Shown: positions 1 to 727 of the stretch, in pieces
Layout: each line of letters opens with the position of its first letter
Numbering within the stretch: the first letter of the stretch is position 1
IMG/VR virus record: IMGVR_UViG_2690316343_000010
Source: a virus
Lineage: Duplodnaviria > Heunggongvirae > Uroviricota > Caudoviricetes
Reading direction: 5' to 3' (one strand)
DNA: 7,751 nucleotides
Translations under genes and position numbers: made by a program
Notes under the pieces: model-generated
Database searches by the model: none
The model's input: the letters and a program-made list of their open reading frames with translations, nothing else
Told to the model about the DNA's origin: nothing

Positions 1-597
1 CCAAACTGCGATCGATTCAGATGCCATTTTGCACACTGAGTACTTTTTAAGCTTTGAAGCTACTCGACCAGCGTTACTATTAGCATTGGTGACGTTGGTT
101 TTTTCAGCTTCTGTTAAGTCTGAATAGTCCAGCTTCCAAGCCTTATTACATTTAATCTGAGCATCGAGAATATCATTTCTGATAGCTGGAGCGTAACCGG
201 ATACATCGCTAATATTCATTAACTCTTTGCACGATAGCATAGGCGCGTTATTGCGTTCAGTGGTCACGTTACCTGCATTCTTCTTACTGGTCACACCACC
301 GTCATTTGTGGTAGCCGTTTTGCCAGTGGCTGCTGAAATATCAGTTTGACCTACGATTGCTTTAAAGTTAATTTCCTGAAAAGTTAGCTGGATACGAAGA
401 CCGTTAGAGATAGTAACATCTTTAGAGGCTTTAAAGTTGGTAATAATGGAATCGTCAATTTTAATTCCATCTTTACAGATAACAGAAATAATCTGCTTCT
501 GGTCACGCCAGTTTTCCAGAGTGTCAATGAAGTTTTCTACTAATTGACCCTGACGAGTTAATAATAAGCTTCCTTCATAATTGCATGTTCTGTGTAG
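1..597 (-). CDS. Hypothetical phage protein (tail-associated by position), 3' end beyond window edge; no in-frame start codon, probably the continuation of the 727..575 ORF after a +1 frame change
   Basis: Reading plus-strand triplets from position 1 and reverse-complementing gives 199 sense codons with no stop from 597 to 1, which is improbable by chance in AT-rich DNA. The first in-frame ATG is only at 240, so roughly 120 open codons upstream are unexplained unless translation enters from the 727..575 frame. Not in the ORF track because it lacks a stop inside the window. Confidence 0.5.
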
Positions 598-727
598 TCA
601 CCTGCATAGGGCTATCAAATTCCATGTTTTCAGTTGCTGATAAGGTTAAGAAGGCATCTACATTGTCTCTTAAGTGGAAATAGATGCCATCTTTGCCACT
701 GTAACGAAGCTGATTAGTGTAAATCAT
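575..727 (-). CDS. 50-aa ORF immediately downstream of the tape measure gene; probable N-terminal part of a frame-disrupted gene
   Basis: ATG at 727 is preceded by a canonical Shine-Dalgarno (AAGGAG, 6-nt spacer). The frame ends at TGA 577..575 while the +1 frame stays open from 597 to the window edge. Translation [50 protein letters not shown]. Confidence 0.45.

What the first reader, a model, noticed from the sequence alone, without database searches (positions are those of the whole stretch)
575..727. Gene downstream of the tape measure is split by a +1 frame change
A well-initiated ORF (AAGGAG RBS, ATG 727) stops at TGA 577..575 after 50 codons, while the +1 frame is open from 597 for at least 199 codons to the window edge with no start codon of its own. 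The two frames overlap only at 575-597, which has no homopolymer run. Possible explanations are a genuine pseudogene, an assembly or sequencing indel (the scaffold has a gap elsewhere), or a recoding event. The local sequence around the stop (CAA TTA TGA AGG) is not a classical slippery site, so I favour error or a real disruption.
Basis: seen in the sequence. Interest (0 to 1): 0.5.

Follow-up and report, generated by a model that had tools for sequence, protein, structure and literature searches.

The report
Tail gene broken by 74-bp deletion
The apparent frame change is a real 74-base deletion that killed a phage tail "tube initiator" gene in a decaying mobile island of Shigella sonnei; this is an ordinary pseudogene, not a sequencing error and not ribosomal recoding.

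Summary
On the minus strand, AAGGAG (739-734) and ATG 727 open a 50-codon ORF that ends at TGA 577-575. The +1 frame is open from 597 to the window edge.

The cause is not a 1-nt slip. Every intact homologue is a single 255-265-codon gene, and the window lacks 74 bp of it (codons 50-73 plus 2 nt) at 581|580. These homologues are Felixounavirus phages and a related ~11-kb island found in 408 complete E. coli genomes.

The lost peptide, [24 protein letters not shown](G), is almost invariant. It lies inside the Dit_like (tube-like) domain of the tube initiator protein (PDB 9ndy gp018; Bas63 gp18).

The identical junction is present in all 19 independent Shigella assemblies fetched. Two of them can be named as S. 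sonnei complete genomes (S17BD05200, and the hybrid assembly FC1653). This excludes an assembly error.

The gene carries further damage. Window 1-33 is an IS21-family end that replaces the last 6 codons, and many strains add an IS1 at about position 128. The island's integrase is also split by an IS3-family element.

Verdict: a fixed pseudogene, typical of Shigella genome decay, and of low interest in itself.

The island is more interesting. It is a conserved element (rep-like gene, TMP, tube initiator, serine recombinase) with no capsid, sheath or tube genes. It may be an undescribed satellite or antagonist of Felix O1-like phages.

The parts
884..3064 (-). Tape measure protein gene (726 aa), intact.
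   Evidence: Pfam PF20155 TMP_3 (77 bits), TIGR02675 and phrog_4036. It is 30% identical overall to the Felixounavirus HK3 TMP, with the N-terminal ~45 aa and the C-terminal LLSSSYPEEE conserved. The exact protein is indexed in 5,607 blocks of public assemblies.
728..883 (-). A 156-nt TMP-TI spacer specific to the island; in Felixounavirus the two genes overlap. It holds two conserved inverted repeats (871-859/831-819 and 788-776/757-745) and the AAGGAG RBS at 739-734.
   Evidence: Sequence. Alignment and consensus fold of 8 island variants: the 9-bp core CTACGTGAA/TTCACGTAG is kept in all 8, and 2 adjacent pairs covary. No consensus promoter or terminator and no Rfam hit.
575..727 (-). 5' remnant of the tube initiator (TI) gene: codons 1-49 of the ancestral gene (727-581), then an out-of-frame Leu codon and TGA (580-575).
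   Evidence: Translation. Alignment to HK3 and to E. coli TUM1881.
580..581 (-). Deletion junction. 74 bp of the intact allele (TCAGGG...GTAGTTGG; codons 50-73 plus 2 nt of codon 74) are missing between these two bases. There is 1 nt (T) of microhomology.
   Evidence: No direct repeat flanks the breakpoints; only a 7-bp inverted repeat AACTACA/TGTAGTT brackets them. The exact 30-nt junction is present in 19 of 19 Shigella loci.
34..579 (-). 3' remnant of the TI gene (ancestral codons 75-256), now in the +1 frame relative to the ATG. It has no start or RBS of its own.
   Evidence: Translation. Pfam Dit_like match covers only profile positions 65-118 (33 bits) against 2-118 (73 bits) in the intact orthologue. 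21 synonymous versus 5 non-synonymous codon differences from the TUM1881 allele over the whole gene.
1..33 (-). Terminal repeat of an IS21-family element (IstA/IstB). It is inserted after codon 256 and replaces the last 6 codons (NPNKKY*) of the TI gene.
   Evidence: The 33 nt match hundreds of unrelated E. coli loci at 100% identity. In L011 the sequence continues with multiple terminal repeats and then istA/istB genes. The intact end is seen in TUM1881.

Best explanation
The gene after the tape measure is a homologue of the myophage tail tube initiator. In Felixounavirus Bas63 this protein (gp18) forms a hexameric tube-like ring that sits on the baseplate hub and adapts its threefold symmetry to the sixfold tail.

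In this lineage, Shigella sonnei, a 74-bp genomic deletion removed codons 50-73 and two bases of codon 74. Because 74 is not a multiple of 3, translation from ATG 727 runs out of frame and stops two codons later at TGA 577-575. The remaining 182 ancestral codons lie untranslatable in the +1 frame.

The gene is therefore a dead pseudogene in a decaying, immobilised ~11-kb integrative island between ymdF and wrbA. The same gene is also clipped at its 3' end by an IS21-family insertion, many strains carry an IS1 inside it, and the island's large serine recombinase is split by an IS3-family element.

Shown: the deletion, its exact borders, its presence in many independent assemblies, the intact single-ORF state in relatives, and the additional IS lesions. 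Inferred: loss of function, because the missing segment is near-invariant and lies inside the tube-like domain; and that the deletion is recent and neutral, as part of Shigella's reductive evolution.
For: - Pairwise and three-way DNA alignments show a clean 74-nt gap in otherwise 93-96% identical sequence.
- Codon-level reconstruction places the gap after codon 49.
- All 213 phage records and all 40 E. coli records listed (of 408 genomes with a match) align as two pieces, with a record span about 74 nt longer than the query span. None of the 5,426 complete E. coli genomes has a match closer than 96.2%.
- Intact homologues are annotated as single CDSs of 262-265 aa.
- The deleted 25 residues are nearly invariant across phage and island homologues, even where the neighbouring TMP is only 42-51% identical.
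- Protein identity: PDB 9ndy 'Tube initiator protein (gp018)' at E = 3.5e-114, Pfam PF21821 Dit_like at residues 30-146, and its role in Bas63 (PMC12609058).
- The junction is identical in 19 of 19 Shigella loci. Nine of these were retrieved through the TMP alone. They include CP110404.1 (S. sonnei S17BD05200, named in PMC11125565) and CP037997 (S. sonnei FC1653, a hybrid complete genome, PMC6836418).
- Other lesions: the IS21 end, IS1 in 12 of 19 loci, and the split recombinase.
- 21 synonymous against 5 non-synonymous codon differences from the closest intact allele indicate purifying selection until recently.
Against: Nothing contradicts this reading directly. There are three limits:
- Loss of function is inferred, not measured.
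- I could not examine reads or the PGAP annotation of S. sonnei records.
- I did not survey all S. sonnei lineages, so an intact allele in some lineage is not excluded.

The mechanism of the deletion is unknown. There is only 1 nt of microhomology.
Confidence: 0.95

Rival explanations
1. Assembly or sequencing artefact: the true genome has one continuous frame, and the draft scaffold, which has an N gap elsewhere, lost bases here.
For: The window is a draft scaffold with a 93-N gap, and that gap is itself artefactual in size.
Against: - The identical junction, and 100% identical flanking sequence, are in 19 of 19 independent assemblies, including several complete chromosomes and a hybrid assembly (PMC6836418).
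- The 50-aa product is indexed in 2,281 blocks of the collection.
- A 74-bp loss in non-repetitive sequence is not a typical sequencing error.
Confidence: 0.01
2. Programmed +1 ribosomal frameshift (recoding) at CAA UUA UGA that joins the two frames into a functional tail protein.
For: - A stop codon in the A site with an open +1 frame downstream is the general layout of prfB-type +1 sites (established knowledge).
- Phage tail genes are known to use recoding (established knowledge).
Against: - The two-frame layout is not conserved. All homologues are single ORFs.
- The juxtaposition was created by a lineage-specific 74-bp deletion.
- tRNA-Leu on UUA cannot re-pair on UAU, and no Shine-Dalgarno-like stimulator lies upstream (sequence).
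- The shifted product would lack 25 near-invariant residues of the tube-like domain.
- The gene is further truncated by IS elements, and the island is decaying.
Confidence: 0.01
3. Two genuinely separate functional genes: a 50-aa peptide, plus a downstream protein that starts at a non-canonical codon. For example, a truncated tube initiator fragment could be retained as a dominant-negative decoy against Felix O1-like phages.
For: - The 5' ORF keeps a strong RBS and ATG.
- The 3' part still scores above the Pfam Dit_like cut-off (33 bits).
- A second Shigella species (S. flexneri) also has the TI gene broken at almost the same codon, by IS2.
Against: - There is no start codon or RBS near the 5' end of the +1 frame, and the first ATG is about codon 128.
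- Many strains carry an IS1 inside the 3' part, and all carry the IS21 truncation. This argues against selection to keep it.
- Parallel breakage is expected in IS-rich Shigella genomes.
Confidence: 0.03
4. The 74 bp is an insertion in the relatives (for example a mobile mini-element or intron-like sequence), and the window shows the ancestral state.
For: None beyond the formal symmetry of an indel.
Against: - The 74 nt encode conserved residues, in frame, of a protein whose structure has been solved in virions.
- They are present in all phage records and in every listed E. coli homologue.
- Only with them is the gene a single ORF.
Confidence: 0

Closest known systems
Tube initiator protein of Felixounavirus (Bas63 gp18; PDB 9ndy 'gp018'; Pfam PF21821 Dit_like; phrog_3721)
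   Same: - It holds the same position, immediately after the TMP gene.
- The intact island orthologue is almost 100% identical in amino acids to the phage protein over residues 6-172, the tube-like domain.
- The window's two fragments are 93% identical in DNA to Felixounavirus genes over 436 nt.
   Different: - The window copy lacks codons 50-74 and the last 6 codons, so it cannot be translated as one protein.
- Even the intact island allele has a different ~90-aa C-terminal extension. In Bas63 this is the part that spreads through the baseplate.
- It sits in a chromosomal island, not in a phage genome.
IS-driven and deletion-driven pseudogenisation in Shigella (reductive genome evolution; established knowledge)
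   Same: - It is a lineage-fixed inactivating lesion in a horizontally acquired element.
- It is accompanied by IS21, IS1 and IS3-family insertions in the same island.
- Intact alleles persist in E. coli.
   Different: The primary lesion here is a small deletion with no flanking repeat, rather than an IS insertion or a point mutation.
prfB-type programmed +1 frameshifting (established knowledge)
   Same: An in-frame UGA with a long open +1 frame downstream.
   Different: - No conserved shift site, no SD stimulator and no re-pairing potential.
- The arrangement is not conserved in homologues.
- The product would be internally deleted.
Phage satellites of lytic myophages, e.g. Vibrio cholerae PLE, which parasitises ICP1 (context of the island; comparison from established knowledge and the abstract of PMC13595925 seen)
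   Same: - The island is small (~11 kb) and has a large serine recombinase and a replication-initiator-like gene.
- It lacks capsid, sheath and tube genes.
- It shows recent sequence exchange with a lytic myophage group.
   Different: - It carries its own TMP and tube initiator. I know of no described satellite family defined by this pair, and four literature searches found none.
- Induction, packaging and interference are all untested.

Membership tests
Programmed +1 ribosomal frameshift site | The two-frame arrangement is conserved among homologues. | tested here: not met
   All intact homologues (HK3, TUM1881, 97-3250, DETEC-P61, L027, L031) are single ORFs of 255-265 codons.
Programmed +1 ribosomal frameshift site | A shift-prone P-site codon able to re-pair in the +1 frame, plus a stimulator (an upstream SD-like element, or a slow A-site codon). 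| tested here: not met
   The sequence is CAA UUA UGA AGG. An A-site stop is present, but UUA to UAU re-pairing is not possible, and there is no SD-like element in CAGAACAUGCAA (rule from established knowledge of prfB).
Programmed +1 ribosomal frameshift site | The shifted product is colinear with full-length homologues. | tested here: not met
   The joined product lacks 25 near-invariant residues. Its Pfam match shrinks from profile positions 2-118 to 65-118.
Tube initiator / Dit_like (PF21821) tail protein | Sequence match to the family above the curated threshold. | tested here: met
   The intact orthologue scores 73.3 bits (cut-off 24.2). The window's 3' fragment scores 33.4 bits but matches only the C-terminal half of the profile. 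PDB 9ndy matches at E = 3.5e-114.
Tube initiator / Dit_like (PF21821) tail protein | A complete, translatable ORF that encodes the whole tube-like domain. | tested here: not met
   There is a 74-bp deletion inside the domain, a frame shift, and 3' truncation by IS21. The window copy is a pseudogene of this family, not a functional member.
Tube initiator / Dit_like (PF21821) tail protein | Located directly downstream of the tape measure gene. | tested here: met
   The TMP gene is at 884-3064 and the TI remnant at 34-727 on the same strand. The order is the same in HK3 and in the E. coli islands.
Tube initiator / Dit_like (PF21821) tail protein | Forms a hexamer on the baseplate hub and nucleates the tube. 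| not testable with these tools
   Known for Bas63 gp18 from cryo-EM (PMC12609058). No expression or assembly data exist for the island protein.
Genuine genomic pseudogene (as opposed to an artefact) | The same lesion appears in independent assemblies and technologies. | tested here: met
   19 of 19 Shigella loci carry the exact junction. These include the complete genomes CP110404.1 and CP037997, the latter a hybrid assembly.
Genuine genomic pseudogene (as opposed to an artefact) | An intact orthologue exists in close relatives. | tested here: met
   There is a match in 408 complete E. coli genomes. All 40 listed records carry the 74 bp, and the best is 96.2% identical.
Phage satellite (PICI/PLE-like), for the surrounding island | An integrase and replication functions are present, and a full virion gene set is absent. 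| tested here: met
   Large serine recombinase. Replication-initiator-like protein (PHROG E ~1e-10). Only TMP and TI among virion genes.
Phage satellite (PICI/PLE-like), for the surrounding island | Helper-dependent induction, replication and packaging. | not testable with these tools
   No experimental data. Literature searches found no description.

The most novel reading that the evidence does not exclude
The broken gene is ordinary, but the element it belongs to may not be. It is an ~11-kb integrative island with a conserved core: a 236-aa protein with no phage homologue, a 68-aa protein, a ~700-aa TMP, a tube initiator, and a large serine recombinase.

The island is intact in E. coli strains (97-3250 and DETEC-P61 between ymdF and wrbA; TUM1881 inside yecE). 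The core keeps the same order in variants whose TMPs are only 36-51% identical.

The tube-like domain of its tube initiator is almost 100% identical to that of lytic Felixounavirus phages. Its TMP keeps only the phage-like termini. The island has no capsid, sheath or tube genes.

The most novel reading not excluded is that this is an undescribed family of satellites, or tail-assembly antagonists, of Felix O1-like lytic myophages. Such an element would insert its own TMP and tube initiator into the helper's baseplate hub. The S. sonnei copy in the window would then be a dead member of that family.
Probability: 0.3. Interest if true: 0.7.

Novelty: already known. Interest (0 to 1): 0.15.

Why it matters
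For the finding itself this is a clean negative. The frame change should be annotated as a deletion pseudogene of a tail tube initiator gene. It is neither a recoding candidate nor an assembly error, and it needs no resequencing.

It also illustrates how much a two-frame pattern can hide. A 74-bp deletion looks exactly like a +1 shift when read from the sequence alone.

The side observation matters more. A compact, widespread and apparently undescribed E. coli/Shigella island carries only a TMP and a tube initiator matched to lytic Felix O1-like phages. If it is a satellite or a tail-assembly antagonist, it would be a new way of parasitising or blocking a group of phages that is used for therapy and biocontrol.

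Tried and rejected
- **Programmed +1 frameshift.** Rejected: not conserved, no signal, and the product would be internally deleted.
- **Assembly error.** Rejected: 19 of 19 assemblies share the junction.
- **Split into two functional genes.** Rejected as unlikely: no start or RBS for the second part, and further IS lesions.
- **Repeat-mediated deletion.** No direct repeat at the breakpoints, only 1 nt of microhomology. A 7-bp inverted repeat brackets the deletion, which is weak evidence.
- **Rfam scan of the whole window.** No family matched.
- **Promoter and terminator consensus scan of 500-1000.** Nothing found.
- **PADLOC scan of ten island proteins.** No defence-system hits.
- **NCBIfam.** Only the TMP domain matched.
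- **The 68-aa and 236-aa proteins as homologues of the Felixounavirus TMP chaperone and tail assembly chaperone.** No similarity. The 236-aa protein has no tblastn match in 50,697 phage records. An early note calling the 68-aa protein a chaperone homologue was wrong, because the DNA hit to phage garuso only clipped the end of that phage gene.
- **Scan of GTDB species representatives for the tube initiator.** It returned only one locus, a degraded S. flexneri copy.
- **Four literature searches for a described satellite with TMP and tube initiator, or one linked to Felixounavirus.** None found.
- **Not run.** I did not run the large protein-database searches or structure prediction, because the PDB and Pfam matches already identified the protein.

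Full report
**1. The observation**

On the minus strand the window reads AAGGAG (739-734), six bases, then ATG (727-725). A 50-codon ORF follows and ends CAA TTA TGA at 577-575. The +1 frame has a stop at 600-598 and is then open for 199 codons to position 1. Its first ATG is about codon 128. The overlap has no homopolymer run.

The upstream 726-aa ORF (884-3064) is a tape measure protein: Pfam TMP_3, TIGR02675 and phrog_4036. The description is therefore accurate. A start-less open frame of this length cannot be chance.

**2. What caused the frame change**

Megablast against 50,697 phage records hit 213 Felixounavirus-type genomes at 80-95% identity. Every listed hit came as two pieces, and the span in the record was about 74 nt longer than the span in the query.

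In phage HK3 the gene after the TMP is one 265-codon CDS. Aligned to it, the window shows a single clean 74-column gap in otherwise almost identical sequence.

The closest intact allele is in E. coli TUM1881. It is 96.2% identical and is annotated 'phage baseplate protein', 262 aa. It shows the same gap.

Codon bookkeeping gives the following:
- The left flank is exactly 147 nt, or 49 codons (window 727-581).
- The missing 74 nt are TCAGGG...GTAGTTGG, which is codons 50-73 plus two bases of codon 74.
- One T at the junction is ambiguous, giving 1 nt of microhomology.
- Because 74 = 3 x 24 + 2, the downstream part falls into the +1 frame.

So the '+1 frame change' is a 74-bp deletion, not a one-base event. 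No direct repeat flanks the breakpoints. A 7-bp inverted repeat brackets them, which is only a weak mechanistic hint.

**3. What the gene is**

The intact orthologue has a Pfam Dit_like domain (PF21821, residues 30-146, 73 bits) and matches phrog_3721 end to end. Against the PDB it matches 9ndy chain A, 'Tube initiator protein (gp018)', at E = 3.5e-114.

In the cryo-EM study of the Felixounavirus Bas63, the tube initiator (gp18) forms hexamers on the head-proximal side of the hub. These hexamers adapt the C3 hub to the C6 tail. The protein has a tube-protein fold plus a ~100-aa C-terminal extension that spreads through the baseplate, and the last 25 residues of the TMP (gp17) contact the hub (PMC12609058).

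The deleted peptide, [24 protein letters not shown](G), lies inside the tube-like domain. It is almost invariant in all five intact homologues aligned, including island variants whose TMPs are only 42-51% identical.

With the deletion, the Pfam match shrinks from profile positions 2-118 to 65-118. Even a hypothetical perfect frameshift would therefore give a protein missing a conserved core segment.

**4. Real or artefact**

Exact-sequence look-ups place the TMP in 5,607 blocks and the 50-aa product in 2,281 blocks of the public assembly collection. Many of these are ~4.8-Mb chromosomes.

All 19 loci fetched carry the exact 30-nt junction. Nine of them were retrieved through the TMP alone, so that sample is not biased towards the lesion. 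Apart from an IS1 insertion in some, all are 100% identical to the window across the whole region.

Two of the records can be named from the literature:
- CP110404.1 is Shigella sonnei S17BD05200 (PMC11125565).
- CP037997 is S. sonnei FC1653, a hybrid complete assembly (PMC6836418).

The lesion is therefore a fixed feature of S. sonnei genomes.

**5. More damage in the same gene and island**

- Window 1-33 is not phage-derived. It is the terminal repeat of an IS21-family element (IstA/IstB) inserted after codon 256, and it replaces the last six codons NPNKKY*.
- In 12 of the 19 Shigella loci an IS1 is additionally inserted at about window position 128.
- The island's large serine recombinase is 547 aa and intact in E. 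coli 97-3250 and DETEC-P61. In S. sonnei an IS3-family element splits it into a 139-aa and a ~414-aa piece.
- Against the closest intact allele, the remnant shows 21 synonymous and 5 non-synonymous codon differences. This is the signature of purifying selection until shortly before inactivation.

Together these describe a mobile element that is decaying in place, as is usual in Shigella (established knowledge).

**6. Rival explanations**

- **Recoding.** It fails on conservation, on signal (UUA cannot re-pair on UAU and there is no upstream SD-like element) and on product integrity.
- **Artefact.** It fails on the 19 of 19 assemblies.
- **Two functional genes, or a decoy fragment.** This cannot be formally excluded. 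However, the 3' part has no start and is hit again by IS1 in many strains.
- **Insertion in the relatives.** This is excluded by the conserved in-frame peptide.

**7. Context worth recording**

The window is not a conventional prophage. In E. coli the homologous element is about 11 kb. Its genes run in this order:
- a small serine recombinase;
- sometimes a Dam methylase;
- an HTH/replication-initiator-like protein (PHROG E ~1e-10);
- several small ORFs;
- a 236-aa protein with no match in any phage record;
- a 68-aa protein;
- the TMP;
- the tube initiator;
- a convergent large serine recombinase.

It sits between ymdF and wrbA in 97-3250 and DETEC-P61, and splits yecE (DUF72) in TUM1881. The core order p236-p68-TMP-TI-recombinase recurs in IMG/VR entries. 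Across these, the TMP is only 36-51% identical and the recombinase only 34% identical, while p236 stays above 80% and the TI N-domain about 90% identical.

There are no capsid, sheath or tube genes and no PADLOC hits. The TI N-domain is almost 100% identical in amino acids, and 93% in DNA, to lytic Felixounavirus. Its C-terminal extension differs. The TMP shares only its termini and a central block with the phage TMP. No phage record has a closer TMP.

This pattern suggests an element that interacts with the tail assembly of Felix O1-like phages, either as a satellite or as an antagonist. Four literature searches found no description. This is a hypothesis only, and nothing about induction or packaging can be tested here.

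**8. Verdict**

The finding is a correctly observed but ordinary pseudogene: a 74-bp deletion plus IS truncation of a tube initiator gene in a decaying S. sonnei island. Interest in the finding itself is low. The island family deserves a separate look.

Noticed in passing
Whole window (1-7751); E. coli loci L021 3342-15985, L022 ~5600-16470, L023 ~5800-16470; IMG/VR loci L025-L027, L031, L033: The window belongs to an ~11-kb integrative island, not a normal prophage. Its conserved core is p236, p68, TMP, tube initiator and a large serine recombinase. It also has a rep-initiator-like gene and has no capsid, sheath or tube genes. It is intact in some E. coli strains, lies at two different integration sites, and keeps its core order in variants whose TMPs are only 36-51% identical. 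It may be an undescribed satellite or antagonist of Felix O1-like lytic phages.
   Followed up: partly
Window 268-703 versus the rest of the window: Only this ~436-nt stretch (510 nt in the intact allele), which encodes the TI tube-like domain, is 92-93% identical in DNA to Felixounavirus genomes. The flanks are too diverged for megablast: the TI C-terminal extension differs, and the TMP is only 30% identical in protein. This mosaic suggests recent recombination between the island and infecting lytic phages.
   Followed up: partly
Window 7522-7614: The 93-N scaffold gap replaces just three bases (CGT) present in complete S. sonnei genomes (L002 5541-5543). The gap size is therefore an assembly or scaffolding artefact, and nothing is hidden there.
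   Followed up: yes
Window 1-33 and about position 128: Window 1-33 is an IS21-family terminal repeat, so the window ends at an IS, as is typical for short-read contigs. 12 of 19 S. sonnei loci carry an extra IS1 inserted at about window position 128, inside the TI remnant. The window itself lacks this IS1.
   Followed up: yes
Window 745-871 (the TMP-TI spacer, minus strand): There are two inverted repeats conserved among island variants: CTACGTGAA(t)AA...TT(t)TTCACGTAG (871-859/831-819, ~27-nt loop, two covarying pairs) and TCAAAGGCTTGGT...ACTAAGCCTTTGA (788-776/757-745), the latter just upstream of the RBS. In Felixounavirus the two genes overlap and the spacer is absent. This may be an operator or a translational control element. 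There is no Rfam hit and no consensus terminator.
   Followed up: partly
L024 8428-10498 (Shigella flexneri SFBU1023): A different variant of the island in S. flexneri has its tube initiator gene split by an IS2 inserted at codon 75, with target duplication GTGAA. That is 3-4 nt from the right breakpoint of the S. sonnei deletion. Its TMP is also rearranged onto the other strand. This could be parallel inactivation, an insertion hot spot, or coincidence.
   Followed up: partly
Window 3394-4104 (minus strand): The 236-aa protein just upstream of the TMP module is >80% conserved among island variants. It has no Pfam, PHROG, NCBIfam or PADLOC hit and no tblastn match in 50,697 phage records. PGAP calls some orthologues 'transposase'. 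Its function is unknown, and it may be the island-specific key gene.
   Followed up: partly
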